Shown one piece after another: positions 31,682-64,000 of a stretch of 64,000 bases of DNA. The notes beneath the pieces were generated by a model that was not told the DNA's origin, ran no database searches, and worked only from the letters and a program-made list of their open reading frames with translations. A program made the position numbers and the translations under genes. The stretch's first letter is position 1. Every line of letters begins with the position of its first letter. This stretch comes from a virus (taxonomy: Duplodnaviria > Caudoviricetes): positions 32,001 through 96,000 of the IMG/VR virus record IMGVR_UViG_3300021400_000347, one strand, 5' to 3'.

Positions 31682-34600
31682 TTACCTCCTTATTGAATTA
31701 ACGCTTGTTTTGCGCGCAATCTTTAAGATTTCGTCCATAGCTGTATCAGCAGCTTGACGTACATCATAATCGTTCGCGATTGAAGCGACATTCATATTTA
31801 ACGTAATACCACCAAAATCGGTGCTTGTGCCAATTGATGAATAGTCAGGTTGATTGTTAAGTACATTACGGAAATCAAGTAGAAGATTCGCTAGTGAATT
31901 AGAGCCACCGGAGCTAAGGATTTGATTCTTCCATAGTTGAGTCTCTTCTGCGTTCAAGAAGGCTTCTGGCTTGGATTTAGAACCGTGAACCATTGCCAGA
32001 CCAGTATAATCGGCTAGGCCACCTTGAGAGTAAGCATAAGCTTTAATACCTGTCGCTCCTTTTGGCAGTTTTGCTTTCTTTATTGCTTCTTCTGGCGATG
32101 ATGCACCAACTTGTACTGAACGTAGCGCGCTAGGATTGGAGCCTTCTCCTCCATAATACTGAACAATATATCCTGCATATTGAAGAGTCCCCTTTATTGT
32201 TTGACCAGCTTCTGTTATAGTAATTTCCGCTGGGGTGGCTGTACTAAAAGTATACCCAGCGAAAGAACGTTTATGATTAGCTGTTACAACTTTTGAACCG
32301 ACTTTTATAGTTAAATTGTCTGTACCTAATGTCTTGCCCGTAGTTGTTTTGTGTTCAAGAATTACATATCCAACTCCAGAAGCTTTTGTTCCACCAGTAG
32401 AACCAGTATCTATCTACTCAGGCTCCAGACTATTATCCTCTGCAGGCTTCTCTGGCTTCGGCATAAGTACCTTCATAGCCTCATTCGCGGCTGCGCCGGC
32501 CTTATTCGGATCGTCAGTCGTCTTATAACCACGTACATATGCCTAACGTATCTCATTTTCATGCTCACTAGCGCCAGGCATACCCTTAATACCATTCCAG
32601 AAAACCTCCCAGTTATAGTCGGTTTCTTCTTGCATTTTGGCATCCTTGGCATAAGCGAAGTATTGTTCGATTTCACCAGACATCTTACGAGTTTCTTCAA
32701 GCTAAGCAAGCTCAGACATACTCATATTTTCAGGAGTGTTAGCATTAATGTAATTAACTAGCTACTCAGGAGTACTAGCATTAATTACTTTATAAACTTC
32801 TGCCCAGAGTAAGCCATGCTCCTTATCATATGCCAATGCCTTGGTCATTAAATCAATCTAATGATCAAGTCTCTCGATTTGCTTATCAGACGCACTCTAA
32901 ATAGCATCAATAGTTCTCTATTGCGCATCAAAGTACGCATCCTGATCGCGCTATGCAATCTCATCTTGTAAACTCTTAATTTCAGCCGCGGAACCGCCGG
33001 AACGTTGTAGTATGGCTAACTAACGACGCATACGTTCAGTCTCAGACTGCGTATCATTAGTTTCATACATATCACGTTCACGATCAAGTTGCTCACTTAA
33101 GCCATCTAAGAATTTACCAGTGCTATCTTCAATTGCATCACGCTCATCCTAAGCCTAATCAATTTCCTACTGACGAATATTTTCTACAGCTTTAAGAACC
33201 CTATCCTCAACAGCTCTTTGATTATCAATAATTTCTTGGAGAATCTTATTACGCTTATCGTCCAAATCAATAATAGTTTCGCGATGCTCTTTAACTTCAT
33301 CGTTTAGCTAATCAATTTCTTCTTTCCGCTCGTTCATCCAGTCATCGAAGTTCTTCATGATAGCTTCGTAGCCGCCTTCTTTGGAAGTGTCAATCTTCTT
33401 GCCACTAGTATCGTACATGATTTCATTCATGTCCATACCCCAAGCTTTGAGTAATGCAACCTACTCCTTTACATTATAAGTAGGCTTACCATACTCATCG
33501 CGCTCATAGAGCTTACCAAGCGCGCGCAAGCCACCATGATCACCATTGGCCATAGTTGCTTCGTCATTGAAAATAAGCATGCCGGATTCTTCATCCATCC
33601 TCATTATTTTTCCGAAGAAACTATTTTCCAAATCTTTTACTTTGTGATCTAAATAATCTTGTTGTAAATCTGCTAGCTATTGTTCATAACTTGCCTGAGA
33701 CTTAATGGCCGCTAATGAGCGCTTCTGGCTCTCATAATATGCGTTACCATTAATTTCACGGTCGCTTAAGATCTTAGTACGAAGTTTCTCTTCATAATTA
33801 ATTTGTTTCTCAAGAGCGGCGATTTTCTGCATTAAGGTGTACCAACGGTCAAGATCTGCAATGAAAGAACCGAGATCCCCTCCGCCACCGCCACCGCCAC
33901 CGGCTTTTTTACCAAGATCGCCAATGGATAGCGATGCTAACTGTTTCCACATGGCGCGTAGTTGCTTCAAAGATGCTAGAGCATCAGCCGCGCTAGCCAT
34001 CGCAGGTCCGCCTTTAATATTTCCGGTTGCAAGTGAAGTTGCTTTTCGTTCATTAGTTACAGCACGTCCACGACTATTAGCTGTGCCATGCGCGAGAAGC
34101 GAAGCAGTTTGTAAGTGATTAAATACAATCGCATCCTCAGCAAGATTGACCATTTCAGGTCCATTCTAGCCTACTACAAAATACCTACCGCCAGAAACTA
34201 CGAGTTCAGGACCAAGCTCGCCCATTAAAGTGGAGCCGCCAGCCATTGCATTGCCGGTTGCCAAACCTACATTACCAGTTGCCTGTGGAGAAGCATTGTT
34301 CCCTGCACCTTTTTGGATGTCTTGCTTAACTGGATTTCTAAGTCCTTCAGCGCGATTAGAATAAATAGTAGTAAGAACTGAATTAGTTCCAACATTAATA
34401 TTCTGTCTAACAGGAGTGCGCCCAGCAACAGTTTGGTTATCTTTTAATGCCTATTGTACCTTAGTGACATCGGCAGTGATATTCATCGTTGCGAGTGCTT
34501 CAGCTACTTCGTTTATAAGTTTTGCGATTTTTTCTCTTGCGGGCTCAATATCTGCATCTAAAGAAAGATCGGGTAAAGCAGGTACCGTAAGATTGCCTGA

Positions 34601-37600
34601 ACCATTTGCGTCAGAAGAACCGCTAGATAATGATGCTATTCCCTAAGCTATTGCTGCATAATTTATAATTTCTAACGCCTATAAATCGGTAAGCATAGTC
34701 GTTAAGGCTGCTGCTACGCCGTCTAATGCGCTAGAATCAACATTTGCTAAAGTTTCAGACAATCCTTTAAAGGCATTTTGTATACCAAAAGTAATTGTGT
34801 TGCTTAGGTTAATATCAATTCCGGCTATGTCACCAACTTGTTTCATAAGTGCAGCTTTAGCTTCTTCCTCAGAACCAGCTGCGAAAGTATATTTATACTC
34901 TCCTAATTGTACTGTAAATGTACCATCGCCGTTATTGGATTCTTCGGTAATAAGCTCATTGATTGCATCTTGGCCACCTTGAACTAGATTTAGCGCCTAC
35001 TATTTTAATTTAGGATCACTCATTGCTTCTTGAGTAACCTTCTTTGAATCTTTTACTCCTTCTTTAGAAAAAGCATATTCAATTTTAGCAGTTTCTCCAA
35101 ATAATTGAAAACGGAATTGTTGTTTAGTTAATCCTTCTTTTAATGTGACACCCTCACCAAAATTTAGTTCTTTATCTTCCAAATAATATTTTTCTTCTGC
35201 TGCTTGCATATCAGAAAGTGAAGTATGTTCATTTCCTTTACTATCAATATATTTATCATTTTCCTCAGTCGATTTTTTTACTTTATATTCATAACCGCTT
35301 TCTAAAGTTTCAGTATGAGTTATTGTACCAGTACGAGAAGACATGGTTTCGTCCATTTCCTCTTGAGTAACCTCAAAACCACGTTCTTTTAAAAACGCGG
35401 CATTGGCTATTGCCTGAGAAGCGACATCATCAAGGTTTTCACTATTGCCAGTGTAAGTTTTTCCATCAATTGTAATAGATACTTTTCCATTAACTAAAGT
35501 AATAGACTCTGTTAACATTAATGCATATGTTAATTCAGCATTACTTAATGTCTATCCACTAGTATATTTTTGAAGAATCGTTTGAGCATCTTGAATAGTA
35601 GTATTATCTCCAGTAGCTTTATTATACGCTTCTATAATTGTTTTAGTAGAAACAGATTGCCAGTCAATAGTGACCATACTTTCGCCAGAAATAATATAAC
35701 TAATATCACCGACATCTAATTGAATTTGACCACTAAAGCCATTCTACCTAAGAATATCTATAACACTTTGCCCAATATTATCTAAATCATAATCTCCTGA
35801 TTTCGCGGCCTCACTAAAAGCACTTAATACAGCCAAATAGGTTTGCTATGTTAGTTCATCAGCATTCTTAAGCTAAGTTTCATCCCAATTAATAATATCA
35901 GCTAAAGAAAGACTACCTATTTTAATACCCTTTAATGCATTCTGCAAATCTTTATTAAAACCTTCGTCTCCTTCACTTAATTTTAACTAATCAATCATTC
36001 TTTGACGCCATTTTTCATAAGACTCCTAAAAAACGATTGCGTCTTTTTCTGTATCAAAAGTAAATAATTCACTTAGCTCGATACCATTACCATCAATATC
36101 AAGATCACCAAGCTCTTGCATTTGAACAATTAATTCGAGCATAGAAATAAGGCCATCTAACATCTTGACCTACGCATTCGCAAGATCATGGATGCCCGCT
36201 TCTACCCCACCATTCATAGCTTCAGCGCCAGTTTTAATACCGAAACCAATCTTAGTTAAATCAACTTTAACTTCACCAGTATCAACTGCTGTTAAAGCAT
36301 TACAACCAGCTTCAATAGCATTCGCTGCAGAAGTCAACTCACCATTTAATGTAAAAGCACCAAACTTAATATCTCGGCCTGTAATACCAGCTAAATTATT
36401 AATTTCATTAACAATATTATACCAATCCTAATAATCAATCATGCCACGTTGAGAACCAGCGGATTTGCTAAATACATCCTAGAATAACTGTACCGCTTGG
36501 CCCCAGTTTTTAGCATAATTTAAAGGATTCTTTTGTCCACCTGGAATATCGCCAGACATGAAATTAAAACTATCATCTTCAGTCGTTGAACGTACAGCGA
36601 GAATTTCTTTCGCTAAATCTAATTCTTGTTGATACTATTCTATTTTTTTCAATGATACTTCCTGATTCTTTTCATTAATATTTTTTAAAGTATCGTCAAT
36701 TAATTTATTTAGCTAAGCAATCCTAGTTAAAATAGAACTTGCTGATTTATAATGAGTATTAGTCTCTTTTAATGAATTATTTAATTCATCAAAAACTAAT
36801 TTTGATTTAATATTATCTACATTTTTTAATGCAGTATAAAGCTAAATAGCAGATTCCTAAGATAACTTTAGTCCTTCCGCGGTCTAAGTAAAATCTAAAT
36901 TAATCCCCTAAGAACTCGCCCAATCTTTTAGACTATTAGCATCTACATTACTTAAAGTTCCTGCTAAACCATTGTTAATTAAATCAACAAGTTTCTATAA
37001 GAAAGAAGACACTGAATCCGCGAGCTCCGCCAGCTCACTGCTAATTAATTTATTTTTATCCTTAGCAAGCATAGCTAACTGAGTAACTATGGTAGGAATA
37101 TTTGCTCCTTCGCTAATTGTTAAAATTCCATTTTCAATTGTCGCGCCAGTACCAAATAACCATGCCTGTATTTCATTTTCAGCCATTCCAAGTGTCTCAG
37201 TTAAATACGTTACATTAATTTTATCGCCGGCTTTAGCTTCTCCAATGGCTTTAATTTCCTCAGTAATTTTTTTACCAACTTTACGATCTAATTCAATTAA
37301 TGAGTCATTATAGGAATTGAAAGCATCTAAAACCGCTTCATTACTTGTATTTCCAAGACCAGGCACCTTACTAGAAAAAGTTTTCCAATCTTTTATACGA
37401 ATTTTTCCATTTCCTAATGATTCAAGACCATATCCAACAGCATCGGCTATAACATCTTCTAACTTTATACCATAGTTTGCTAATAATTGGCCTAAAGTCT
37501 TATAATCCATACCGTCAGCATTACCAAGAGCGTCTATAGCATCAATATTCTTTTGATCAATGGCAGTTAAAAGATCAGCATACGCATCATTAAGTTCAGC

Positions 37601-40600
37601 TGTAGTTGCTATGGCTGCGTCTTCCATAGATTTGTATATCATAGCATAAGCTTCAACCATATTTCCGACAGCTTCCACAACGGCAGTACCATCGCCTAAC
37701 TTCTTTATCTGGAATCCTTTTTCTGTAAGTTTATCAAATATTCTAACTAAATCACCACTAATAATAGATCCAACAGTTACTTCGGCAAGTTGCTCCGCCG
37801 CTGTTTGTAACCTATTAACTCGTGCACGATATACCGCCTCAATTTCATCTGAACTTACATTTTCCGCGCCCTTGATTTTTATTAATTGATCAACAGCGTC
37901 CTAACCACCATTAAGTAACGTCTTAATAATATCTGTATTAAACTCTTCTTGAGCAATTAGAGCCCATTTCTTTAACTGTCTAATTAATGTCTACGCTGCT
38001 TTTCCTTCATTAGAAATATCAGAGCCAGTTATAAATCCAACAATATCAATTTCTTGACCAATCAATTGTTGCGCCTAACTTTGTAAATACTTAGTAATAT
38101 ATTCATTAGAATAACCTAATTTCTCTAGCTATTCGCGTTCGCTATCAATATACAACTATAACATATTATCTCTAATCACATAACTCTAAAGAAGATCGTC
38201 ATAGTAAAATAAATCATTTGTAGAACGAAGTAATGTATCAGAGCTAATTTTATTATAGCGCTAAGTAAACTTCTCCATTTCAGCAACGCTGTTTGTTCCA
38301 GATATACCAAGCTATAAATTACTATTAAAAGCATTTAATGCGGCATCCTAAGCCTCGGCAATACTAGTAGCAACACTATTATAGATTGTATCAGCAGTGT
38401 TTTGAGAAATAATTCCTTTGTTCACGGCGCCTGTCAACTGCTATCTTAATGCACTTGGATCTAGTATTCCTTTGTCTAAAACATCGTTAATAGAAATTCC
38501 AATCGCGGATAATGAAGCATTTAATCCATCATAAAATTCTTGTTGTTCTAAATCAGTAGCACTACCATCAATAATACTATCCCAATTTAATTGACTAATT
38601 TTAGCAATAACAGCAGAAGTAGCATTATTCATTGCTTCATCAATTTCATGCTGTTGTTCTGGTGTTGCTTTTCCGTTTGGACCGACAATTTTATTTGTTA
38701 AATAATCCTAATAGGCATCAAGCTTTAATATATAGGCATCGCCAACTTTAATAAAGAAGCTTTCACTTAAATCATTTAGATTTAATCCACCATTCTCAGC
38801 TAAATTAGCAATATCACTATCTGATAGATTAAGAATGTTATCACTAATTCCGGTCCAAGCAGTTTGCGCGCGATTAATAACTTCTTGTGCAGTTTTCCAA
38901 TTCTTAGCTAAATCTTGTTTAGTCCAGCCGTACTGTTCATATAACTATTTCTCATCTTTAATAGTAGATAAATTTAATATAAAATCAGAAGCCCAATGAG
39001 CATACTCTACAGCATCAGTAATTGTTAAAATACCATTCTCAAGAGTAGCTCCGCTAAGTTCAGCACCTTCTTCTAACTCAAAAGCACTTACATTTAATTG
39101 AGCGAATGGCTCAATTTGACTAAATAAATTATTTGCACTCTTATTTAAATATTCTGTATTGGCTGTAGCATCTTCAATTAAGCCGTCCACATAAGAAGAA
39201 TATGCATTTCTATACTCAAATGTATCTTCAATAGAAGAAAAATCTACTCCATAAGTCTTTGTAAGCACAGACTTAAATACATCCCAATTGGTAATTTTAG
39301 TTTTACCAAACGCATCTGTTTCAACAGCATTCTCTAGCCCTTCCTTCCAAGTACCAGTTCTAGCATCGAATACTTGCGCTAATTCAATATCCAATGCTGT
39401 AAATAGATTATTAAGGCCATCTATACCTAAAGATGCACCATTACTTAATCCCTCAACAATAGCGTTATTATCTTCGTATTTTTTGGTTAGAATTTCAGTA
39501 TAAGCTTTATTTCGTTCGGCATTATTTAATAGCCCATCTTTGGCCGTTTCGTATAAAGTAATTGCTGTATCTACATAATTTGCTGTAGCCGTAGCAGCTG
39601 CTTGTTCCGCGGTCTAAGCCTATTGAACTTGCTGCATTAAAACAACTGTTGGCTCACTATATGCTGTTTCGGTTCCAGCAAGCACTTCCGTAATAGCAGT
39701 AGCAACTTGCTTAGATCTTGCTTGCGTTGTTGAATTGACAGCAGCGGCTTGAGCAGCGGCTTTTGCTTCTTCCGGAGCGTCAGCATATGCCTACTCCAAA
39801 TATTTTTCTCGGACTGACTACCAAGTGTACCCTTCTTCCATACCCAATTCTTTGGCTAACTAATCAATATATTGCTAATTAGCGCCAGTAAAATCAGTGC
39901 CAGTTGCTAAAGCATCCCAGTCAATTGCTGCATAATATTGATTTTTCTTATTTGCTTTTAAATTATTTAAAATTTCTTCGCTTAAATTTAATCCTTTTAA
40001 GCCATCAGCATAATACTATTCTACAAATTCTATAAAATGCGCCCAACTTTGATCTACTTCGTTTCCAAAAGCTGTAAATAAATCATCATATTTACTCTTG
40101 TCTTCATCACTTATCTCAAAAATCTAATAAGCCTGCTCTTTAGTCCATTTTCCAGCAACTTTTGCCCATGCTGTTCTCTAAACTCCAATTTTTCCATTAT
40201 CTTGTATACCAAACTTCTTCGCATAATCATTATATAATTTAGTTGACTATTCAATATGTTCCTATCTATCCGCTATATTTTTATCATATTGTTCCATGGC
40301 TTTTGCCAAGCCTTCTGGTGTATAAACCCACTTCTATAATTTAGCATCAAAATCAAAAGTTTCATCAAAACTTAATTTACTACCCGCCGCGCTGAGCTAT
40401 TCAAATGCTTCAATAGCTTTATCAAAACTAAACCCACTTTTCGCAGAGCTCAATAAACTATCTACTTTTTTCGCGCTTTCTCCAGCCTCTTTTGCTAATT
40501 CATTCGCTAAAGTATTAGTATTTACTACAAGATCTCTAATACTTTGATCAAATAAATCAGTTATTCCTTTTACATCTACTTTATTTTTTTTACCGTATTC

Positions 40601-43600
40601 TTCAACAGCACGTTTTCCTTTTACAACCGAAGCATAATCAGAAAGATCTACATTAGAAATAATACCAAATAATTCATTCTGCTACGTTGATGTAAAATTA
40701 CTTAAACCATCTAATAATTGTGTTAAAATATTTAATCTATGCTAAGCAACATTTTCATAACCATTTTCTGCCAAACCATTAATTTTTAATAGTTCATCTT
40801 TTACGAAGTCACCATATTTAGATATTATTTGATCATTTTGAAAAAGTTGTCCAATCTCTTTTACCTGATCGCTATTATTCTGCATTAATGATTTAAGTGC
40901 TTGATCATTTAATATCCCCTTATCAATATCTGTCCATATTAATTCTAATACTTTCTTTTTTTGTGTTGCAATACTTTCTTTCCATTGCGCTTCTAATGCA
41001 GGTTTAATATATTCAGTCTCATCACCGGTTAAACCTAATTTAGTAATAATATCTTCTACATTCGTATATTCCGTAAAATTTAAATTCTCTAATAACGTTT
41101 TCTAAGAATCAGTTAATTTAGAATACCAAGCAATAAACTCATTAGACCATTTACCTATTGTATCATTGTATTCTTCAGGAGCTTTTTGAGCCCACTCTGA
41201 TACACTGTCATAATCCTCATTATTATAAGCACCATTCTATAAAACATGCTTAAATAACGAACTATATGAATTATTCTTCTATAAACGAGCTCTCTAATCT
41301 GTACTTAAAGATGACGATAAATTTGCATTTTCATATAATGCAATCTAACTAATTACAATATCATCTTGTAAACTTAATGCATCCATTAACTATTGATTTT
41401 CAGCTAATTTACCTTCAACAATTTTTTTAGCCTACTTTATATCAGATTCAGAAATTTTTTCTGTTTTATTTGGCTTTTTTAATAAATCATAAATGTCATT
41501 AGCATTATCAAATAAATCAGGAAATTCATGTAAAATTGAATTAATCTAATCTAATGAGTATGACCATTCTACAGGTTCTGCACCGAGATCATTCATCCTA
41601 AGTACATCTTCTTTATACTTTGTCCAATCAATATCTTTAGCAGACTATCCTGAACTAGGCGCCTCATAAGCATCTGATTCTATAAATTCTATAGTTTTTA
41701 TAATTTCATCCCAAGTAAGAGGTTGCTCGTCATAATCTCTGGTTTCACTTTCTTCTGGATGCTTCTACATATAAGCATCAAGTAATGCCTGATCATAAAG
41801 AATTTGATTTGTCTAATCTCTATCTCTTTTAGAAGATATAACATATTGAACGCGACCGTCGTTTTGTACTGCACGAGTAGTATAACTAGCACCGTAGGTA
41901 GATATAACACCAGTCCCAATATTGCCATTGCCAGCTTTTTCTTGTTTGTCTATCGCTCCTCTAGCTTTCAATAAGGCTTCTCGCTCTTTCTATCTTAATT
42001 GTAGTTCTTTTTCTATAGCCTATCTAGCACTTCTGGCACCATCTAACCGTGCCTATGCCAAAGCTTCTTCAGCTTTCTATAAATCAATTATAGCATTACC
42101 AGCTTCATCATATGAACCAATCAGACTAGGATATTCCTCTGCCATCGCTGCCATTGCATCTTTATAATTCTTCATATCTTCTTCAGAATTATACATAACT
42201 TTTTGCAGAGCTTTTAAATTTTCAATAGAAGAATCTAGACCAGTAACTTTAGCTTGTTTTTTTAAACTTTCGTTCTTCGCTTCTTCTGTTTCGTCCCTCA
42301 GCATATCAATCTATTCTGATAGCTTAACTTCCAATCCATCAAGAATTGCACCTAGGCCACCTATTAAGAAGCCACCAATTGCACCTGCTGCCATACCCCA
42401 AGGGCCCAATGCGCTTAATGCCATTGCTCCAGTACCAGCCATAGAAAAACCATTGCCAATACCAGTTAATATTTTAGATTTTTCATGCTTATCTGAACTT
42501 TTATCTTTCGTAGAAGCTCCTACCGCGGCAATAATAGGACCGGCAATATTAGCTACCATAGCTCCAATTCCTAAACCAGTAGCCCATTTCTCTGACGCGC
42601 TCTTTCCTTGTCCTCCTGCTCCGGCTCCTTTCGCGCCTGCTGCCTTTGAAGAACTGTTCGCTTCTGCTTCATCTGCTGCTGCCGCTTTTAAGGATGCTTG
42701 CGCTTCAGCATCATTAGCGTTTTTCTTATTATATTCAGAATTTGCACTAATACGATTGCTATTAGCTAATACTTCATTGGACTATGCTACCCCATACGCT
42801 GTGCTTGCTTCTTGCTACTTTGCCTATGCACTTGCTACTGCCGCATTGGCCTCTTCTAATCTTGCTCGTGCTGTAATTGCTTTATCCGCTAATAATTCAG
42901 CATCTCCCTAACGATTTGCTAATGCATGGGCTGCTGCCGCCTAAGCCGCATCATAAGATGCCTACGCCTCCGCCGCTTCGGCCTGAGCACTTCGAACAGC
43001 AGCATTCGCGGCTTCAAGATTTGAAGTCGCAGCCCTGCCTGCAGAACTCTCTAAATCAGTAAGCCCCATTCCTAAAGTTCGAACCGGGCCAGTAGCATCA
43101 TTCAAATTCTCAGAAAAAGTACTTGTTGCCGCAGAGAAGTCTGCTAGCATTTCGTCCATAATACCGCCAAATGAAGTCTCAGTATCAATATCTAAAGACT
43201 CCATAAAAGACTTGCGACCAGATTCATCACCCAACTTTCCTAAACCATTGACCAACGCAGTATTGGCATCCTCATCTGACATACCAGTCATTCTTAGCAT
43301 ACCAACGAGTGCGCCTTTATTACCCGCGTTATCCGCAAGTGCCTATGAAGCAGTATTTGGTAAGGTCTAATCATCTGTTTTCACATGGACTTCTTTAGTT
43401 ATCGGCTCTGCTGCTTTGTTATTCAATTCTTCAACTTTCTTTAATGCTTTATCTGTATTTACATCAACTTGTTTCTTATTATTCCGCAGTTCTCGTATTC
43501 TATCCATAGCTTTGGATAAATACTAAACACCGCTCTTCAAACCTTTACCAAAACCAAAGATACTCATTAAAGAAGGAAGCAGCCCCTTCAATACTCCTAG

Positions 43601-46150
43601 TTTTCCAACTGTTTTTAAAATATTAGTAAAAAAGTCATAAACGCCTTTTAAAGCATCTTCAATATGAAAACTTAAATACAGCTATGACCAAGCATTTTTT
43701 AATTGCTATGTTTTAGTCTCTAAAGAATCCATTGTTTTTGCTACTTGTACGATGCTGGCATTTTCAGAGTTGTTAGCAGTATCCATAGCTCTTGATAGCT
43801 CTTCATAGTTAGATACCAAAGCAATAAAACGAGATTGCTGTCTGTTACCAGCCATAACTGTAGCGATATAACGCTATGTATTTTTATCTAATGTATTCCA
43901 TTTCTATGCCAACTCCATAATGACGTCATCAAAATTACGGAATTGACCAGACGCATCTTTAATAGAAATACCAACTGACTTTAATGCTTCATCAGTTTTA
44001 TTATAAGATACTTCTTCTCCTTCAACATTCATCAATGAATCAGGAGAGGCTTTCATTTCACCATATCTTGAAATAATAGACTTCAACGCGCTACCAATGT
44101 TCTATGCAGACTCTCGTGTGGTTTGCTCCATAACGCTGATAAATGCAGATGTACTCTGTAGAGTCATGCCTACAGAAGCAGCAGACGAAGCTGTTTTTTC
44201 CATAGCGTTAGCGATTTCAGCAGAGCTTACAGCAAACTTTGCTGCCAAAGCACTATATGTGTCCGTGACTTGCTGTGCGTCTGTCATCTCAATCTTAAAC
44301 GCACGCACAGCTACTGTCATAGCATTAGCGGCTGATGAATAATCAATACCAGCAATCTTTGCCATCTTTAAAGTCTCTGCAGTCAGTGACATTACCTATG
44401 CAGTTTGTAGACCTTGCTGATAGAAAATCTATGATACTGTATATACATCTTTAGTAGCAACACCGTACTACTAAGCCATGTTTGTATATTCGCCAATTTT
44501 ATCCCATAAATCAGATTGAGACATATTAGTAACTACGGCGATAGCTGTAATAGTCTTATCCAATTCTTTTACTTCGCCAATCATATTACGAATAGCGCTG
44601 GTAGCTTTATTAATCAAGGCATAGGCACCAAACCATCTTTGAACAAAACCAGACATGCTATTTAATGTCTGAGTCTACTTGCTCATACCTTGTAATTCAT
44701 TTTTAGCTTTATTAGCATCCTTTTCAGTCTCTTCTAGATTTTTATTTAATTGCTCTACCTAATTAACACCAATTGACTATACTTCCTATTGAATAGGCTG
44801 AGCAGCATTAGCCAACTAGCGCTTCTAATCGTTTAAAGACTGCTACGTTGTAGTAATCTCTTGCTGATGAGAGCTAGTCATCGTAGCAAACTGAGCTGAC
44901 GCGCTTCTTACGGTTTCACGTTTTTCCTTCGCTTTTTCTAGCGATCCAGATATCTCTGTAGCATTTTCAGAAGCCTCTTCAATTTTACTTGCTAAACTAG
45001 CTTGCCCTTCTTCAGCAGCTTTTTTAGCTCTTTCATAAATCTACTTAATAATTTCTGCAAGCTTATCGAGATCTCCGCTAGAATAAGCAGTAGTTATTTC
45101 ATCTAACTCTTTCTTTGTTGCTTCAGGAGAAATTAGCTCCATTAATCTATTATATGTTCGCTCAGTATCTCCTAAAATAAAATTAGACATCTACCGTGCG
45201 GAAGTATTTCGATTAAATCCTAAAGCGTCGCCTAAAAGCTTACTTTTATTTAAATGTAAACTACGCCCTGTCTTTCCAGTAGCGATAGAGAAAATTTCTG
45301 TAATCTATTGCTCAAAATCAGAAGCTAACTATCCTTTATCATCTAAAGTAAAGGCAGTTCTAATTCTATTCTTTAGATCTTCCGCAGCCTGCTATAAAGC
45401 AGGATTATCTCCAAGCCCTTTAGTTGCCTCAGTAATATTCTAAATTAAAGTATCGGCAACCTGCTGCGCGCGCTCCTCTGATGGCTTTAAACCTTCTAAT
45501 AAACCATCTAAGCCTCCGCCTTTTTCAACAATAGCAGGTGTTTTCATCTCACTTTGCTGTTGTTGTAAATCAGCGAGCGTCTACTAAGCTTGGCGTAATT
45601 TCTCTTCATATCCCTGAACCTCATTAGTCGCACTCTGGAACATATTTCCAAGTTTTGTTCCAGCCGCGGAAACACTGAGTGTTTGAATATTTAATCCTAA
45701 ACTTTCTAGCGTAGAAGAAAATTCAGCAAAATCACCCTTAGATAGTAGATCAGATAGTTTCATACCTTTGAGCTAAGTCAAATGTTGCTGAGTAGCTTCA
45801 ATAGATGCCTATAGCTAATCTGTCTATTGACGTATACTATCTAAATTAATATCTTTTATTGAAACGCCACTAAGAGTTTGACCAATACTTACTCCTAAGC
45901 TGTCAATTTTCTCCAGCGCGGTCATAAATTTCTAAAGTTCACCTTCAGAATAAAAGCTAGGTGTGCTGTCTTTACTCATAGACGCTACTTTACGCTTATA
46001 TTCTTCTAGCATTCTGCCTAAAGATTTACCAATAGAACTACTCGGGTCAATATTCCCCATAGCCTTCTAAAAATCTTTTATGCTATTCTACCAACCAGTT
46101 ATTCGCGCATTAATGTCCATAGTAATAGAGTTTCCACTTGAACCACTCAT
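31682..46150 (-). CDS. Tape measure protein, ~4822 aa, dense with TAG
   Basis: Twelve ORF-track fragments are all in frame with the ATG at 46150. TMP core motifs (TTRESA(Q)NIGSALKSIISRY, AGNRQQSRFIALV), hydrophobic Gly/Ala segment near 42.4 kb, GELGPE. Not every codon was checked for TAA/TGA. Confidence 0.85.
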
Positions 46151-58296: not shown

Positions 58297-59221
58297 TTAA
58301 TTCACCTGCCAATTCGTCTTCGCCTTCGTACTGAATATCAGCAGTTTCATCAAACTCAACCTTCTCGTTCTCAATCTCTTCAAGACGCTCTGTCATATTG
58401 TAGCGTTCGCGCTTATCTTCAACCTGCTCCGCGAAGTTACCCTCATTAACAACCAGACGCTTCAAATAATTCTAAATATTCTCCATCATAAAGTCAATAG
58501 AATCTTTCGCTTCTGTATGCCATTTTGGATGCCAGCCCTTCTTCCCGTAGTAAACCATAAGCTCACCAACAGACTCGAAGTCGGCTGCGTTCTTTGCGCT
58601 CGTAGCCTCAAAGTGCGCGATTTTAATAATATTATCACGCGCGTCCATATCTTTCTTAATATCTTCGCCCGCGCGCAAACCCTTCTTAATGCGAAGCTCA
58701 ATTTCACAAAGGTCGCGCGCGTAGTGCTGTAAAATTGGAGTAGATACATTTTGTGTAGCAAGTATCTAATTATAGAAACTATCCAAGAAAAGCAATTCAT
58801 CATCTTTATACGCGGCTGACCACTCCTTACGGAGTCGGCGCATTTTTGCGTCCTAAATAGCTTTAATGTCCTCGTCAATCGTGCCCTATTCGCGCGCGAG
58901 ACGCCATCTTTCATTCTCGTCCGTCCACTAAAGTGAAGCATAGTGGTCGTTCGAGAGGAGGGAAAAGTAAGCAGTTAGCGTATGATCCTTATAGGTTGGA
59001 TATAACTATGTCCATTTATTCAAATCAAATGGTACATCAAGGTAGCGGCAAAGCCTATCAACTTCGCCCAAATTGCTCTGATCAACCATCTGCTCCAAGC
59101 AATTAGTACAAATAAGTGAAAGATGATTAGGGAAAAATTTGGATGGTGTTCGCGCAAATTCATTCTCCGGCTTTTCCTGTCTACATCTCATGCATCTACG
59201 TTTCTTTATTTCTTCTGTCAT
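58286..59221 (-). CDS. Zn-finger protein upstream of TerL (possible small terminase), ~311 aa, TAG-containing
   Basis: CMRC...CTNC, GGAGG RBS, fragments join in frame, acidic C-terminus. Confidence 0.6.
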
Positions 59222-60488
59222 GAGTTGGCTAACCTCCTTCAATACGCCTATTGCGTTCGCATTCCTTACAGGAAGATGAGAATCCATCTTTACGGCCCTT
59301 ATTCAAACAAAAGAACAACTTATGGCGTGGAAGCTCGCGGCCGCAGGTGGCGCATTTTTTACACTCCTCTAATGGGGTTTCAATTAACAGGCGATGACGC
59401 TGCGCGGCGTATGCTATTTTTTCCGGGATTTCTTTGGCCAAAATTGTACATAGGTAGTTTTCGGTATACTTAATGCCATACTTGACTTGGAGGTTATGAA
59501 CAATTTCGCCGTATGGTATTCGCGCGAGCTTTAAGTCAAGAATGTAGTTACGCGCCTCGGACAGATTGGCCATCGCGCGATAGCGTTCAAAATCAAGCAG
59601 AAGTGTATACCCATACGTATCCAATTTTTCGTGAAGCTAATCATAAAGGCCATCAAACTAATTAATTAAATGCTTAATATGGTTGGGGTTCTCCCAGTCA
59701 AAAGTATGCGGCTGAACCATCCACTTGTATTGGGGTTCGCCATTTGGGCCTTCGCGCACCTCATAGTCCTCAATGTTGCGGGAAACGCGCGAAGTTAGCG
59801 AATGGGCAATTTTTTCCTCAAGTTCCGCGCGCGAAATCCAATAGAAGGAGTCGGCCGTCCAGTCAACGAATTGGGTTTTTGGATGGTCTGCGCCCGCGAA
59901 GTGCAATGTAGGTTTAAATATGTCTTTTAGGTAGTACTAATGGCGGCGCATATCAATTAATTGATGCTTGAGCTGATATAGGCGATAACTATCCTTAAGG
60001 AGGGGAGTGTGGTCATCGTAAGGTACCTTGCCCTCATTAACGGCCACGATATGCTCTACGCGCGCAATATCATCCCAGAGTTGCTACATGCCGGGAATGT
60101 CGCTGTCGCCCGGATCGATTAGTTCGCCCGTTTTCTTATTATACTTGGGCTTGTTGATAGTGGGCTTTGGGCGTTTGTATACGGAACGTTTATTTGCGGA
60201 TTGAAGCTCCCGTTCGTCCGTTGCGGGGTTCTCCAGTATTTCGTCTAGGGAAAGAAGTTTCTCGTCTGCGGTCTTAAATGAATTGTAGCGTTTATTGTCG
60301 TCCGTCATTTCGCCACGCTACTTTGCGTTCTTGCCTTCTTCGTCCTTCCCATATAAGATGTAGTTGGCCATTTGCTCAAGTTCTGTATTAGTTGGATTTT
60401 TATCCAATGTATCCAATATATCATAAATAGCTTGAACGCGGTCAACGTCACGTTCAATGCTATAGTCTAATGAATATGCTTTTTTCAT
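59160..60488 (-). CDS. First gene of morphogenesis operon: HTH-like + C-terminal Zn finger, ~442 aa, TAG-containing
   Basis: Three ORF-track fragments are in frame with the ATG at 60488 (GAGGTG RBS). MANYILYGKD and CATC...CKEC. Confidence 0.7.
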
Positions 60489-60507
60489 GGGATCACCTCT
60501 TGAGTAT

Positions 60508-60537
60508 ATTATATCATAGGGGAACAGGAGAAGTCAA
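60508..60537 (-). promoter_or_regulatory. sigma-A promoter of morphogenesis operon
   Basis: TTGACT-18-TATAAT with TG extension. Confidence 0.7.
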
Positions 60538-60983
60538 GTATTTGGGTTGGGAGAAAGTTTGAAAATAAAAAAGTTGGTGGAATTTGGGGTAGGAAATAAA
60601 AAAAGTTGGTGGAAATTGGGGAGCGCCCCATCCGTTTGGGGTATAAAAATTACTTTTTTCCCGAAACTAACCCCCGGGACCTGGTTCAAAGCTAGAAACC
60701 TGGGCCTCGCCTCCACTTCCGCGGCGTTTCCTACCAAAATTTTCCTATTTCCACCCCGCTTTTTTCGCGGGCCCGCCTATTTCAAAATTGAGGCGCCCCC
60801 TATTTCAAAATTTTTATTCAAACGGGGGTGGTCTAAAATTTTCCAACCGGGGGTAGGCATTCAAACCGCACCGGGGGGGTACGTATTTCAAAACGCGCGC
60901 GCACGTGCGAGGAGGGTCGCGGATTTTCTAGGGCGTACCGTTTTGAATACCACGGGCCCGTTTCGTTTGGCCGGCCAGGCTTT

Positions 60984-61681
60984 TACTTTAACACATTAAA
61001 GTGCTAAAGTAGATCGATTGTTAAACTTATAACAATACTCCGCCCATTGTTAAACTTCGGGCCGGTCGTTACCGTAGATCGATTGTTAAACTTTTAACAA
61101 TCCTCCACTGTAGATCGATTGTTAAACTTTTAACAATCTAACTCGGGGCCCACTTTAGCGCGTTAAAGTGATAAAGTCCGTCACTTGTTAAACATCAGGC
61201 CAGTTAGTTATAACTAACTTGATACTGTAGATCGATTGTTAAACTTTTAACAATCGGGCCGACCGGCCAGGATCGATTGTTAAACTTTTAACAATCTTCC
61301 GCGCAGGCGTTCCGGGCCAGTTAGTCATAACTAACTTGAACCTTAAAAAAGGTTCTCCTCCACCGTCTTTATTATAGCGGATAAAGTCAAGTTTGTCAAG
61401 GGGTTTTTGAAAATTTTTTTTAGTTAGTTATGACTAACTAAAACGGGCCCGAGATTGTTAAACTTTTAACAAACTTTAGCGCGCTAAAGTACAGGCCAGT
61501 TAGTTCAGACTAACTAACTCGTGGAGATCGATTGTTAAACTTTTAACAATCTCCGGGCCGGTTAGTTATAACTAACTTGAAGGGGGGCTTTTACTTTAAC
61601 GCGTTAAAGCGTTAAATAATCGGTCGCGCTCTTGTCATCGGTGTTTAAGGGGGAGCAAGATTGTTAAACTTTTAACAATCC
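60984..61681. repeat. Interspersed array of three palindrome families (Rex-like, HisR/YerC-like, GTTAG-N6-CTAAC)
   Basis: TTGTTAAACTTTTAACAA x8 (one with a mismatch), ACTTTA-N6-TAAAG x4 and GTTAG-N6-CTAAC x5. Confidence 0.92.
61371..61399 (-). promoter_or_regulatory. sigma-A promoter inside palindrome array, no downstream ORF
   Basis: TTGACA-17-TATAAT. Confidence 0.75.
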
Positions 61682-61759
61682 TCCACCCGTCGCAAAGCAA
61701 GGCAGGGTGCGGGTTTCACGGGCCGGCCAGAGCAAGGAAAAGAGCGCCTTTCGGCGCCC

Positions 61760-61951
61760 TTACTCCCAGTCCTCCCGCCACACCTTGCCGTCCTCGTGGC
61801 ACCGGATGAACATCCCTTCCTCGTGGTAGCACTCGCTTTTGTCATGCATGCGGCAGTAGGTTTCCGCTTCTTCGAAGGTGTCGAAGGTCTCTTCGATGTC
61901 CTCATCGTAGCCGCCGTTGTAGTAGGAGATGACTTCGTAGAAATTCTTCAT
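61760..61951 (-). CDS. Small acidic early protein
   Basis: Own promoter (62002-62030), GAAAGGAAG RBS, terminator hairpin at the stop. Confidence 0.75.
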   Translation of the reverse strand: MKNFYEVISYYNGGYDEDIEETFDTFEEAETYCRMHDKSECYHEEGMFIRCHEDGKVWREDWE

Positions 61952-62094
61952 TGTTCTTTCTTCCTTTCTTGTGGTGGGCTCTTGTCCCTTTCCACGGTCT
62001 TATAATAGCATACTTTTGCCGGTTTGTCAAGCACTTTTTTTATCTTAAGCAAACTTTTTTTTGCTTGTCATCCAAGAGAGGAAAGAGGACTTTT

Positions 62095-62334
62095 TCAGTC
62101 CTCTTCCTCCTCCGCCCACGCTTCTTCTTCGGTATACTCCGCAAGGACTTCATCCATATACAGGAGCGCAACGCGCGTCACGCAATCGCCCACGGCTTCC
62201 AGAGAGGACTCGTAGTCTTTCACCGCTTCGTCCCACTCTTCGGGGGTGTACCATTCAGTCTCCACCTCGCCGTCCGTATAGTCAGTTTCCACTATCACGG
62301 TCAGACCAGACATCATGTTTTCGGGCTTCTTCAT
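62095..62334 (-). CDS. Small very acidic early protein
   Basis: 79 aa, GGAGG RBS, own promoter and terminator. Confidence 0.75.
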   Translation of the reverse strand: MKKPENMMSGLTVIVETDYTDGEVETEWYTPEEWDEAVKDYESSLEAVGDCVTRVALLYMDEVLAEYTEEEAWAEEEED

Positions 62335-62478
62335 TGTTTTGTTCCTCCACTCTTTTTTGTTTTGTGGCTTTCCCTTTCCACGGTCTTATAGTAGCACATT
62401 TCGGCCGGTTTGTCAAGTGTTTTTTTCATCCTCCACAAACTTTTTTTTAGTGGAGGGGAAGAGGGCTTTTCAGCCCTC

Positions 62479-62628
62479 TTAATCGTCTCGCCGCTCCACG
62501 CGGAGGAACTTTTCCCCAAACAGTTTAGCCATCCGCTCGCCGTCCGCCATAGCGGCCTCTTCCGTGGGGTATGCGGTGCAGACGAAGGCGTTGGTCAGGA
62601 TGATGAAGTAGCGAACCCTTTTAGTCAT
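62479..62628 (-). CDS. Small early protein (49 aa, MTKRVRYF...)
   Basis: AAGGAGG RBS, own promoter and terminator. Confidence 0.7.
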   Translation of the reverse strand: MTKRVRYFIILTNAFVCTAYPTEEAAMADGERMAKLFGEKFLRVERRDD

Positions 62629-62747
62629 TGTTTTTTCCTCCTTCTTCTCTGTGGTGGCTTTCCCTTTCCACGGTCTTATAATAGCACAGATCAACCGGTT
62701 TGTCAAGTACTTTTTTCAAGATTGAACAACTTTTTTTATGCCATATA

Positions 62748-63090
62748 ACACAGCATACAGCACAGCACACAGAACACACACAGCACAGCAAACAGGTACA
62801 CAGCACAGAGATACACACAGCACAGCACACAGAGCACACAACACAGCACGCACACAGCACACAGGTACACGCACAGCACACACACACAGAGCACAGCACA
62901 CACACAGAGCACACACAGAGCACAGCACAGAGATACACACACAGCACAGAGCACAGCACACAGGTACAGTATAGCACACAGGTACACAGCACACACAGCA
63001 CACAGATACACACAGAGCACACACACAGCACACAGATACACAGCACAGCACACAGGTACAGTACACAGGTACACCACACAGCACAGCACA
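62748..63090. repeat. Low-complexity CACAG/CACACAG tract (TG-rich on minus strand)
   Basis: Irregular tandem units cacag, cacacag, gtacacag and gatacacacag. Confidence 0.95.
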
Positions 63091-63132
63091 ACAATAGTAC
63101 CATATATAAAAGGCACCTTTTCCACCATCCTT

Positions 63133-63161
63133 ATTATACAGGATAAAAGTCAAGTTGTCAA
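63133..63161 (-). promoter_or_regulatory. sigma-A promoter firing into the TG-rich tract
   Basis: TTGACA-17-TATAAT. Confidence 0.75.
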
Positions 63162-63201
63162 TAGGTTTTTTAAAAATAATCAAAAAAAAGAGGATGGGCA
63201 T

Positions 63202-63549
63202 TTATTCGCCCATCCACATCTGTACCACTTCCATACCGCCAAATCCCGCATAGCGCGCCTCTACAATCATATCGTCCTTTACGCTTGCGCTATAGTTATC
63301 AAACATAATCATTGACACGAAATCGCCCACGGTGTAATCTTCCACGCCTTCCATAATCCACACCATACCAGCGGCGTCCACCATAACCACGATATCCTCT
63401 TCCACGCTGATCTCGGTGATGATTGCCATATGGGAGTAAAGGTGATTATAGTCAAGAGTCACATCAGGGAGAAACACAGTAGCGGACGCGGTGGAGATGG
63501 TCAGGATGGCAATCAGGGCGAGGGTCAGGGCAATCAGCTTTTTCATCAT
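63202..63549 (-). CDS. Exported/membrane-targeted small protein with signal peptide
   Basis: MKKLIALTLALIAILTISTASA signal peptide, GAAAGGA RBS, promoter at 63603-63631. Confidence 0.75.
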   Translation of the reverse strand: MMKKLIALTLALIAILTISTASATVFLPDVTLDYNHLYSHMAIITEISVEEDIVVMVDAAGMVWIMEGVEDYTVGDFVSMIMFDNYSASVKDDMIVEARYAGFGGMEVVQMWMGE

Positions 63550-63602
63550 TGTTTCAAGTCCTTTCCGGTTTTAAGGGTTTTCCTTCCCTTCTTGACAAGT
63601 CA

Positions 63603-63682
63603 ATTATAGCATATGGAAACCGGTTTGTCAATAGGTTTTTATCCACAAAATGAATCTGTGGATAACTTTTTTCTGTGGATAA
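63603..63682 (-). promoter_or_regulatory. sigma-A promoter with three DnaA boxes just upstream
   Basis: TTGACA-17-TATAAT (63603-63631). TTATCCACA at 63639, TGTGGATAA at 63657 and 63674. Confidence 0.85.
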
Positions 63683-63823
63683 CTTTTGCGCTCCTCCACC
63701 CGTGAAAACATAGACGTAGTGCGGCTTTCCAGACGCGCGCAAACATAGGCACAGTGCGGCCGGGCCGGCCACCACAGCAAAATAATAGAGACCCTTAAAA
63801 AAAGGGTCTCCTCCACCGTCCTT

Positions 63824-63902
63824 ATTATAGCGCCTTTTTGTCAATCTGTCAAGGGGTATTTATCCACAAAATTAATCTGTGGATAACTTTTCCTGTGGAT
63901 AA
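63824..63902 (-). promoter_or_regulatory. sigma-A promoter with three DnaA boxes just upstream
   Basis: TTGACA-17-TATAAT (63824-63852). TTATCCACA at 63860, TGTGGATAA at 63878 and 63894. Confidence 0.85.
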
Positions 63903-63915
63903 CTTTTAGCGCAAA

Positions 63916-63976
63916 AGTTAGTTATAACTAACCATATTACTTTAACAGGCTAAAGTTTGTTAAACTTTTAACAATC
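63916..63976. repeat. Start of a second operator-like cluster (one copy of each palindrome family)
   Basis: AGTTAGTTATAACTAACC (63916), TACTTTAACAGGCTAAAGTT (63938) and TTGTTAAACTTTTAACAA (63957). Confidence 0.85.
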
Positions 63977-64000
63977 TTGCGCGCGCAAAAGAAAAGGGCG

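What the first reader, a model, noticed from the sequence alone, without database searches (positions are those of the whole stretch)
60984..63976. Non-coding array of host transcription-factor operators: candidate multi-regulator DNA decoy or host-state sensor
Seen: about 700 bp of non-coding DNA, plus a second cluster at the window end, is built from three unrelated 18-20 bp palindromes shuffled in irregular order and joined by short GC-rich linkers. Six perfect DnaA boxes lie nearby. Established (recalled consensus): two palindromes match Firmicutes operators, clostridial Rex and HisR/YerC. Inference: about 26 near-consensus sites for four different regulators far exceed what one promoter needs. 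They could titrate host repressors and DnaA after injection and during genome amplification, derepressing fermentation/redox and biosynthetic regulons and stalling host replication without any phage protein. An alternative is that they couple early transcription to host NADH/NAD+, amino-acid and replication status. I know of no description of such a multi-operator array in a phage.
Basis: partly seen in the sequence, partly recalled or inferred. Interest (0 to 1): 0.92.

Follow-up and report, generated by a model that had tools for sequence, protein, structure and literature searches.

The report
Host-regulator operator array in phage DNA
The early region of a large gut or rumen phage is packed with perfect copies of the DNA sites that four of its host's own regulators (Rex, HisR, an iron repressor and DnaA) normally bind, so the phage probably soaks up or reads these proteins, although no binding has been tested.

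Summary
Window 60985-61678 is a 700-bp non-coding array of 8 Rex-type, 5 iron-box and 5 HisR-type palindromes. A second cluster at 63639-63974 adds one of each and six perfect DnaA boxes.

In the whole 133-kb contig, a TAG-recoded phage, there are 73 such sites. All lie in the 25-kb early region. None lies in the other 107 kb.

- Motif A is the published clostridial Rex consensus.
- Motif C is the published Firmicutes HisR consensus.

No phage homologue of these regulators was found. Other large phages, at least two of them TAG-recoded, carry similar arrays in other combinations.

The function is unresolved. I favour sequestration of host regulators on phage DNA (a sponge). Some sites also gate phage promoters, because iron boxes overlap -35 hexamers or sit in leaders, and DnaA trios abut -35. 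An injection-stop site like that of T5, or an origin, is less likely.

This scan noted a similar array earlier on another phage (e1-5753948). I found no published description.

The parts
60985..61678 (.). Main non-coding array: 8 Rex-type (A), 5 iron-box (B) and 5 HisR-type (C) palindromes, plus 2 A half-sites, joined by GC-rich linkers
61083..61100 (.). Example of a perfect Rex-type box, TTGTTAAACTTTTAACAA. Identical copies start at 61119, 61236, 61277, 61455, 61532, 61661 and 63957. The copy at 61018 has one mismatch.
   Evidence: consensus from PMC9600882
61150..61171 (.). HisR-type box that matches the 20-bp consensus cacTTTAn6TAAAgtg perfectly. Other C sites are at 60985, 61473, 61593 and 63939. 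Three of them carry an extra TAAAGT-like half-site 8 bp further on.
   Evidence: consensus from PMC9413887
61202..61219 (.). Perfect iron-box palindrome AGTTAGTTATAACTAACT (B). Others are at 61319, 61422, 61498, 61560 and 63916.
   Evidence: regulon assignment
61371..61399 (-). Consensus sigma-70 promoter inside the array, with a GGTGGAGGAG leader. Its transcript would cross 2 B, 5 A and 3-4 C sites on the way to the sigma-like gene.
63639..63682 (.). DnaA-box trio (one forward, two reverse perfect TTATCCACA) that starts 8 bp upstream of the -35 of the promoter at 63631-63603
63860..63902 (.). Second DnaA-box trio, abutting the -35 of the promoter at 63852-63824
63916..63974 (.). Mini-cluster of one B, one C and one A site placed back to back
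60508..60537 (-). Sigma-70-like promoter (TTGACT-18-TATAAT) of the first gene of the TAG-recoded late operon
59160..60488 (-). First gene downstream of the array: 442 codons, 8 in-frame TAG. It matches the PHROG family annotated 'sigma factor'. This was not confirmed by Pfam, by PDB sequence search or by a confident fold.
61760..63549 (-). Small early genes of 63, 79, 49 and 115 aa. Each has its own consensus promoter (62030, 62416, 62706, 63631), and a CA-rich tract lies at 62736-63100.

Best explanation
The array and the wider early region form a docking platform for four host DNA-binding proteins:

- the NADH-sensing repressor Rex (motif A);
- the histidine repressor HisR (motif C);
- a DtxR-family iron or metal repressor (motif B);
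- DnaA.

Shown here: the motifs are consensus-grade copies of operators used in Firmicutes genomes, they are confined to the early region, and no phage homologue of these regulators was found in the contig (about three-quarters of the genome).

Inferred: host proteins bind these sites as soon as the DNA enters the cell. One phage genome carries more perfect Rex and HisR sites than a whole host-type chromosome, and replication multiplies them. The main effect would therefore be sequestration, that is, a protein-free sponge. Sequestration would derepress fermentation and NAD+ regeneration genes, histidine supply genes and iron-uptake genes, and would draw DnaA away from oriC.

The same occupancy also acts in cis on the phage. 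Iron boxes overlap the -35 hexamer or sit at +24 to +54 of many early promoters. DnaA trios abut -35. The array lies in the path from promoter 61399 to the sigma-like first late gene. Phage transcription would therefore also depend on how many regulator molecules are left per site.
For: - Motif A equals the published clostridial Rex motif. Motif C equals the published Firmicutes HisR consensus.
- The perfect 18-mer of motif B gave more than 120 hits in bacterial genomes, almost all Firmicutes. Of 121 sites, 115 are intergenic. In 55 of 120 loci a FeoA, FeoB, DtxR-family, ZIP, DUF3793 or DUF2325 gene lies within 1.5 kb.
- Five Clostridia genomes totalling 14.9 Mb hold only 2 perfect Rex sites. 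Both lie 27-60 bp upstream of alcohol or aldehyde dehydrogenase genes. The phage holds 8.
- R. gnavus has 3 candidate HisR sites. The phage has about 10.
- All 73 sites lie in the early region and none lies in the other 107 kb.
- No Rex, TrpR, DnaA or DtxR domain was found in the phage or in complete relatives.
- In relatives the arms of the sites are conserved while the centres vary, which is the pattern expected of selection for protein binding. There are 114 A, 241 B and 68 C sites in other phage loci.
- In relative G002, ten A sites follow one another at 20-45-bp spacing (the last seven 20-25 bp apart) with no promoter nearby.
- Rex and HisR sites are never closer than 78 nt to a promoter start.
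Against: - No binding or expression data exist, and the host is not identified.
- The iron boxes and DnaA trios have fixed positions relative to promoters. This fits cis regulation better than a pure sponge.
- The array keeps a conserved place between the sigma-like gene and the early promoter block in three phages, and a promoter reads into it in each. A sponge could sit anywhere.
- The contig is only 76% complete by CheckV, so a phage-encoded binder could lie in the missing part.
- The closest relatives by the late gene lack A, B and C sites and carry other palindromes of unknown binder.
Confidence: 0.45

Rival explanations
1. The array is a purely cis-acting sensor or gate. Host regulators bound to the sites act as operators and tandem roadblocks. 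Phage early transcription, and read-through from promoter 61399 into the sigma-like first late gene, would then depend on NADH/NAD+, histidine, iron and DnaA status. Alternatively they would depend on the ratio of regulator molecules to phage genome copies, which would give a replication-coupled timer. Effects on host regulons would be incidental.
For: - Four iron boxes overlap -35 hexamers (TTAGTCTTGACTAA) and 12 sit at +24 to +54 of promoters that have no ORF.
- Seventeen of 20 DnaA boxes lie at -47 to -105.
- In three phages the A array sits at the junction of the sigma-like gene and the early block, and a sigma-70 promoter reads into it.
- Many roadblocks in series would explain why many sites are needed even though none overlaps a promoter.
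- Known precedents are Spo0A sites in phi29 and Nf (PMC2731898) and CtrA sites in alphaproteobacterial phages (PMC9437464).
Against: - Rex and HisR sites never overlap a promoter.
- 18 sites in 700 bp, and ten sites 20-45 bp apart in G002, far exceed what known operators use.
- The sigma-like gene has its own promoter.
- In G004 the promoter that crosses the array points away from the sigma-like gene.
- The sigma-factor identity rests on a PHROG label only.
Confidence: 0.3
2. The array is a cis-acting structural site: a replication origin, or an injection-stop or DNA-anchoring site like the non-coding repeat regions of the T5 first-step-transfer DNA. In this reading host proteins are used only to bend or hold the DNA.
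For: - T5-like phages keep 8 DnaA boxes plus many palindromes in a non-coding region of their pre-early DNA, which has been proposed as the injection stop signal (bioRxiv 10.1101/866236).
- The array sits at the border of the early block.
- The 20-25-bp spacing of seven adjacent sites in G002 resembles iterons.
- A second B, C and DnaA cluster lies at the minimum of cumulative GC skew, near 104 kb.
Against: - The repeats are palindromes identical to host operators, not direct iterons.
- The spacing here is irregular.
- No initiator gene is adjacent.
- The skew follows the direction of transcription, so it does not mark an origin.
- The sites are spread over 25 kb, not concentrated at one locus.
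- The contig ends are unknown, so a first-step-transfer layout cannot be tested.
Confidence: 0.12
3. Phage-encoded proteins, not host regulators, bind the palindromes, as in the stoperators of cluster A mycobacteriophages. Candidates are the four paralogous early winged-helix proteins or the HTH_36 protein. The resemblance to host operators would then be mimicry or coincidence.
For: - Four paralogous early proteins of about 110 aa fold as a long helix plus a winged helix (pLDDT 91.6), with weak winged-helix matches in the PDB.
- One HTH_36 protein is encoded among the middle genes.
- About 24% of the genome is missing.
Against: - The winged-helix family is absent from G002 and G004, which have large A arrays. 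It is present in G013 and G014, which have no A, B or C sites.
- Three unrelated palindromes each match a different published or genome-derived host consensus, and the DnaA boxes are perfect. That is unlikely to be coincidence.
- No homologue of any of the four regulators was found.
Confidence: 0.1

Closest known systems
Spo0A boxes and parS sites in Bacillus phages phi29 and Nf (PMC2731898)
   Same: A lytic Firmicutes phage carries binding sites for host DNA-binding proteins, which tie phage transcription and replication to the state of the host.
   Different: In phi29 and Nf there are a few sites for one or two proteins, placed at specific promoters and at the genome ends. They do not form dense arrays of 18 sites in 700 bp for three or four unrelated regulators.
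Non-coding repeat regions of the T5 first-step-transfer DNA (proposed injection stop signal; bioRxiv 10.1101/866236)
   Same: It is a large untranslated stretch within the earliest-expressed DNA, crowded with palindromes and DnaA boxes, and it is conserved among relatives.
   Different: In T5 only the DnaA boxes have been assigned to a host protein. The region lies in a terminal repeat of a Gram-negative phage. Here three further motif classes are assigned to host repressors, and the genome ends are unknown.
E. coli datA and the B. subtilis DnaA-box clusters (my own knowledge)
   Same: They are clusters of high-affinity DnaA boxes away from oriC that hold DnaA.
   Different: They are chromosomal and they regulate the cell's own initiation. 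Here there are 20 perfect boxes in six clusters on a phage, each cluster beside a promoter.
Stoperators of cluster A mycobacteriophages (my own knowledge)
   Same: Tens of copies of one short operator are spread through a phage genome and block transcription.
   Different: Stoperators are asymmetric, occur genome-wide and are bound by the phage's own repressor. Here the sites are palindromes that match host operators, they are confined to the early region, and no phage repressor was found.
Synthetic operator decoy arrays and the transcription-factor titration effect (PMC11549397 and my own knowledge)
   Same: Many high-affinity sites on multicopy DNA lower the free concentration of a regulator and so derepress its targets.
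   Different: Those arrays are engineered or theoretical. A natural multi-regulator decoy carried by a virus has not been described, as far as my searches show.
   Same: The early-region spacers of that phage are packed with consensus sites for several host proteins, HisR among them.
   Different: That phage carries LexA, CcpA/LacI-type and ParB sites. This one carries Rex, iron-repressor and DnaA sites.

Membership tests
Clostridial Rex operator | 18-bp palindrome TTGTTAANNNNTTAACAA | tested here: met
   8 perfect sites and 1 site with one mismatch. The consensus is quoted in PMC9600882.
Clostridial Rex operator | Lies upstream of NAD(H)-linked fermentation genes in host-type genomes | tested here: met
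   The only 2 perfect sites in 5 Clostridia genomes lie 27 and 60 bp upstream of a zinc alcohol dehydrogenase gene and an aldehyde-dehydrogenase-family gene. This is a small spot check.
Clostridial Rex operator | Bound by Rex and released by NADH | not testable with these tools
   Needs EMSA or ChIP.
Firmicutes HisR (TrpR-family) operator | 20-bp palindrome cacTTTAnnnnnnTAAAgtg | tested here: met
   Window 61150-61171 matches all 14 specified positions. There are about 10 sites in the contig.
Firmicutes HisR (TrpR-family) operator | Lies upstream of histidine biosynthesis or transport genes in host-type genomes | tested here: inconclusive
   In one rumen Ruminococcus genome, 1 of 3 perfect sites lies 28 bp upstream of a hisZ-like tRNA-synt_His gene. 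The other two do not lie next to his genes.
DtxR-family iron or metal repressor operator | Intergenic palindrome next to metal-uptake genes and to the repressor gene itself | tested here: met
   115 of 121 sites are intergenic. Genes found within 1.5 kb, by number of loci: FeoB 22, FeoA 18, DtxR-family 11, ZIP 12.
DtxR-family iron or metal repressor operator | Agreement with a published consensus, and metal-dependent binding | not tested
   I did not retrieve a published motif for this regulator. Binding needs experiment.
DnaA-box cluster (datA-like) | Several perfect TTATCCACA boxes in a short stretch outside a chromosomal origin | tested here: met
   20 perfect boxes in six clusters, 6 of them in the window. 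The phage has no DnaA gene.
Phage or plasmid replication origin with iterons | Direct repeats at regular spacing, an AT-rich unwinding element and an adjacent initiator gene | tested here: not met
   The repeats are palindromes at irregular spacing of 36-178 bp. The linkers are GC-rich. The neighbouring genes are a sigma-like gene and small early genes.
T5-type injection stop region | Non-coding palindrome and DnaA-box region inside the DNA that enters first, in a terminal repeat | tested here: inconclusive
   The composition is similar. The contig is linear and 76% complete with no terminal repeat, so its position relative to the genome ends is unknown.
Stoperator system (phage repressor) | A phage-encoded repressor whose presence tracks the sites | tested here: not met
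   No such repressor was found. The winged-helix paralog family does not track the A, B or C sites across five relatives.

The most novel reading that the evidence does not exclude
A virulent phage reprograms its host without using any protein. Its early DNA is a multi-target sponge that strips Rex, HisR, an iron repressor and DnaA from the chromosome. The falling ratio of free regulator to phage genome copies then doubles as a replication-coupled timer, which opens transcription through the array into the phage's late sigma-like gene. Related phages would swap in operator sets that match their own hosts, for example LexA, CcpA or ParB.
Probability: 0.35. Interest if true: 0.93.

Novelty: new variant of a known kind. 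Interest (0 to 1): 0.85.

Why it matters
Phages are known to take over cells with proteins and small RNAs, and a few carry one or two host-factor sites as sensors. Here a 25-kb early region holds 73 consensus operators for four unrelated host regulators, and other large phages carry the same motifs in other combinations.

If these sites titrate the regulators, this would be a protein-free way to derepress redox, amino-acid and iron regulons and to disturb replication control. It would also be a natural counterpart of synthetic decoy arrays.

There are three practical uses:
- The motif set gives a host-prediction signal, because the operators point to a Clostridia-type host.
- The data give a genome-derived operator for a little-studied DtxR-family iron regulon.
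- The hypothesis is directly testable with EMSA, a multicopy plasmid and RNA-seq.

Tried and rejected
- **DNA similarity.** Searches of the array and of 25 kb of the window against INPHARED phages found nothing.
- **Rfam.** A scan of 60000-64000 gave only sub-threshold noise.
- **Early proteins.** Pfam scans of 45 early ORFs found no recognised DNA-binding family at E of 0.01 or less, apart from a marginal AP2 hit.
- **Middle genes.** A Pfam scan of 74 middle-gene ORFs gave one HTH_36 protein.
- **Weak repressor-like hits.** Partial Fe_dep_repress matches in relatives G006 and G009 are sub-threshold. The G006 one is a generic small winged-helix protein; no ORF was found at the G009 site.
- **Winged-helix paralogs as binders.** I tested this by phyletic pattern and found no correlation with the sites.
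- **Sigma-like gene.** Neither Pfam nor a PDB sequence search matched it, and the AlphaFold model was too poor (pLDDT 54) to use in a fold search.
- **GC skew.** Skew follows the direction of transcription, so it could not locate an origin.
- **LexA, cre and parS patterns.** These are absent from the early region.
Full report
**What is there.** Window 60985-61678 is free of ORFs of 40 aa or more. It is built from three unrelated palindromes:
- A, TTGTTAAACTTTTAACAA: 8 copies in the array, 7 of them identical, usually inside a longer shared unit GATCGATTGTTAAACTTTTAACAATC.
- B, AGTTAGTTATAACTAACT: 5 copies.
- C, ACTTTA-N6-TAAAGT: 5 copies.

Two A half-sites are also present. The sites cover 46% of the array and are 25% GC, while the linkers are 51% GC.

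At 63639-63974 there are two trios of perfect DnaA boxes, then one B, one C and one A site back to back. Every class exceeds its shuffle expectation by 10-fold or more.

**Context.** The window is positions 32001-96000 of a 132,916-bp IMG/VR virus contig. The contig is linear and 76% complete by CheckV. The phage encodes a DnaE-type polymerase, topoisomerase II, RecJ, a primase, a helicase and NrdD.

It reads TAG as sense in its late genes. Reading TAG through doubles the long-ORF coverage and opens frames of 4829 and 1783 codons, and a suppressor tRNA (CTA) is present.

Contig 92.5-118.5 kb holds about 60 near-perfect sigma-70 promoters. They lie on the minus strand up to about 103.5 kb and mostly on the plus strand after that. 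Each drives a small gene or no ORF at all. This early region is 50-56% GC against about 37% elsewhere.

The motifs belong to the whole early region, not only to the array. It holds 10 A, 33 B, 10 C and 20 perfect DnaA boxes. The other 107 kb has none.

The array lies between the last early gene of the left arm and the first gene of the TAG-recoded late operon. That gene (window 60488-59160, minus strand) matches a PHROG family annotated as a sigma factor. Pfam, a PDB sequence search and a low-confidence fold (pLDDT 54) did not confirm this.

**What the motifs are.**
- *Motif C* matches the common Firmicutes HisR consensus cacTTTAnnnnnnTAAAgtg (PMC9413887). Window 61150-61171 fits all 14 specified positions. 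Three C sites carry an extra half-site 8 bp further on. That matches the eight-base-pair half-site spacing that the same paper describes for TrpR.
- *Motif B* was unassigned. Of 121 sites, 115 are intergenic. The flanking genes are feoB, feoA, a ZIP transporter, an ABC exporter, DUF3793, DUF2325 and a DtxR-family repressor. In 55 of 120 loci one of these, leaving the ABC exporter aside, lies within 1.5 kb. B is therefore the operator of a DtxR-family iron or metal-uptake regulon.

Spot checks in five Clostridia genomes found only two perfect Rex sites in 14.9 Mb. Both lie just upstream of alcohol or aldehyde dehydrogenase genes. One of three perfect C-type sites in a rumen Ruminococcus genome lies just upstream of a hisZ-like gene.

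**Who binds.** Six-frame HMM searches found no Rex N-domain, TrpR/HisR, DnaA C-domain or DtxR N-domain in the contig. They found no Rex domain in three complete relatives. Only sub-threshold generic winged-helix hits appeared in B- and C-rich relatives.

The phage does encode four paralogous early proteins of about 110 aa. They fold confidently as a long helix plus a winged helix. This family is absent from G002 and G004, which have large A arrays. It is present in G013 and G014, which have no A, B or C sites. It therefore does not track the motifs. Host regulators are the most economical binders, and I put that at about 0.85.

**Relatives.** Exact-motif scans of IMG/VR recovered many large phage contigs with clusters of the same motifs beside blocks of consensus promoters:
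- L008 has 13 A sites.
- L022/G002 has 24 A sites, ten of them 20-45 bp apart (seven at 20-25 bp), interleaved with B and C sites.
- L034/G006 has 19 B and 11 C sites.
- L016 has 11 C sites.
- L049 and L088 have 16 B sites each.

The arms of the sites are conserved and the centres vary. I counted 114 A, 241 B and 68 C distinct sites. C sites were not used to find these loci, so their co-occurrence with A and B is independent evidence.

G002 and G004 are complete and TAG-recoded. In each, the A array sits between the homologue of the sigma-like gene and the early promoter block, and a promoter reads into it.

The closest relatives by that gene (56-58% identity) have no A, B or C sites. Instead they carry a different 19-bp palindrome. 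In L269 it recurs about every 300-400 bp, and at the two promoters I checked it lies about 10 nt upstream of the -35.

The repertoire therefore seems to vary from phage to phage.

**How it may work.** Two layouts coexist.
- *Promoter-linked sites.* Seventeen of 20 DnaA boxes lie at -47 to -105. Four iron boxes overlap a -35 hexamer. Twelve iron boxes lie at +24 to +54 of promoters whose transcripts start with a GGTGGAGGAG leader and have no ORF. These look like true cis operators.
- *Promoter-independent sites.* Rex and HisR sites are never closer than 78 nt to a transcription start, and they occur only in dense arrays.

One phage genome holds 8 perfect Rex sites, against 0-1 in a host-type genome. 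It holds about 10 HisR sites, against 3 in R. gnavus. Even one copy should therefore compete for these low-abundance repressors, and replication multiplies the load. This step is inference.

I therefore favour sequestration as the main role of the array (0.45), with cis gating as a real second effect or as the main rival (0.30). A T5-like injection-stop or origin role (0.12) and a phage-encoded binder (0.10) remain possible.

**Novelty.** Full-text searches found no description of multi-regulator operator arrays in phages. The nearest known cases are:
- the Spo0A and parS sites of phi29 and Nf (PMC2731898);
- CtrA sites in alphaproteobacterial phages (PMC9437464);
- the T5 non-coding DnaA-box region (bioRxiv 10.1101/866236);
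- chromosomal DnaA sinks;
- mycobacteriophage stoperators.

I class this as a new variant of a known kind, namely host-factor sites on phage DNA. It has a substantial chance of being a new mechanism if the sponge function is shown.

Noticed in passing
window 24736-60488 (minus strand); tRNA at contig 2469-2558: The phage reads TAG as sense in its late genes. Examples are a 4822-codon ORF with 120 in-frame TAG (window 31682-46150) and a 1782-codon ORF with 40. A suppressor tRNA with anticodon CTA is encoded, and the early genes are almost free of TAG. Relatives G002 and G004 are TAG-recoded too.
   Followed up: partly
contig 92.5-118.5 kb (window 60500-64000 and L001, L002): About 60 near-perfect sigma-70 promoters (TTGACA-17-TGnTATAAT) form two divergent arms. 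This early region is 50-56% GC against about 37% for the rest of the genome, and the early regions of relatives are also GC-enriched.
   Followed up: partly
contig 92969-118326 (window 60969, 61721, 63763; L001, L002): The 8-bp palindrome GGCCGGCC occurs 33 times, always in the early region and usually just after a terminator T-run (yCGGGCCGGCCmG). It never occurs in the other 107 kb. Its binder or function is unknown.
   Followed up: no
window 61399-61340 and 63852-63787; L001 (about 10 more): Consensus promoters with no ORF give transcripts that start with a GGTGGAGGAG leader. The promoter at 63852 runs straight into an intrinsic terminator (63811-63787), so it would make an RNA of about 45 nt that carries a strong Shine-Dalgarno-like sequence.
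   Followed up: no
window 62736-63100: An irregular CA-rich tract of about 350 bp, UG-rich on the transcribed minus strand, lies downstream of the consensus promoter at 63161-63133. It has no clear coding periodicity.
   Followed up: no
window 60550-60960: The 430 bp between the array and the late promoter hold further repeat families: AAAAAAGTTGGTGGAAWTTGGGG twice and TATTTCAAAA-like units about six times. They are unassigned.
   Followed up: no
L001:15809-16135, L001:18137-18487, L002:385-714, L002:2134-2460: Four paralogous early proteins of about 110 aa are predicted to be a long helix plus a winged helix (pLDDT 91.6). They belong to a family of more than 250 unnamed proteins with no Pfam domain. 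Their phyletic pattern does not track the A, B or C sites.
   Followed up: yes
window 63202-63549; L001:11718-12059; L001:14288-14611: Three paralogous small early proteins carry N-terminal signal-peptide-like segments. None matches Pfam and the one checked against PHROGs has no match. The one in the window has a DnaA-box trio upstream of its promoter.
   Followed up: no
L269:1-8000 and L273:1-8000: The closest relatives by the sigma-like gene lack A, B and C sites. They carry TTGGATGTAnTACATCCAA (19 copies) or TTAGATGTTnAACATCTAA (12 copies) spread through the early region; in L269, at the two promoters I checked, the palindrome lies about 10 nt upstream of the -35. The binder is unknown.
   Followed up: partly
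L001:12138-12583 (contig 104138-104583): A second array of a DnaA trio, 3 B and 4 C sites lies at the point where the two early arms diverge. This is also the minimum of cumulative GC skew.
   Followed up: partly
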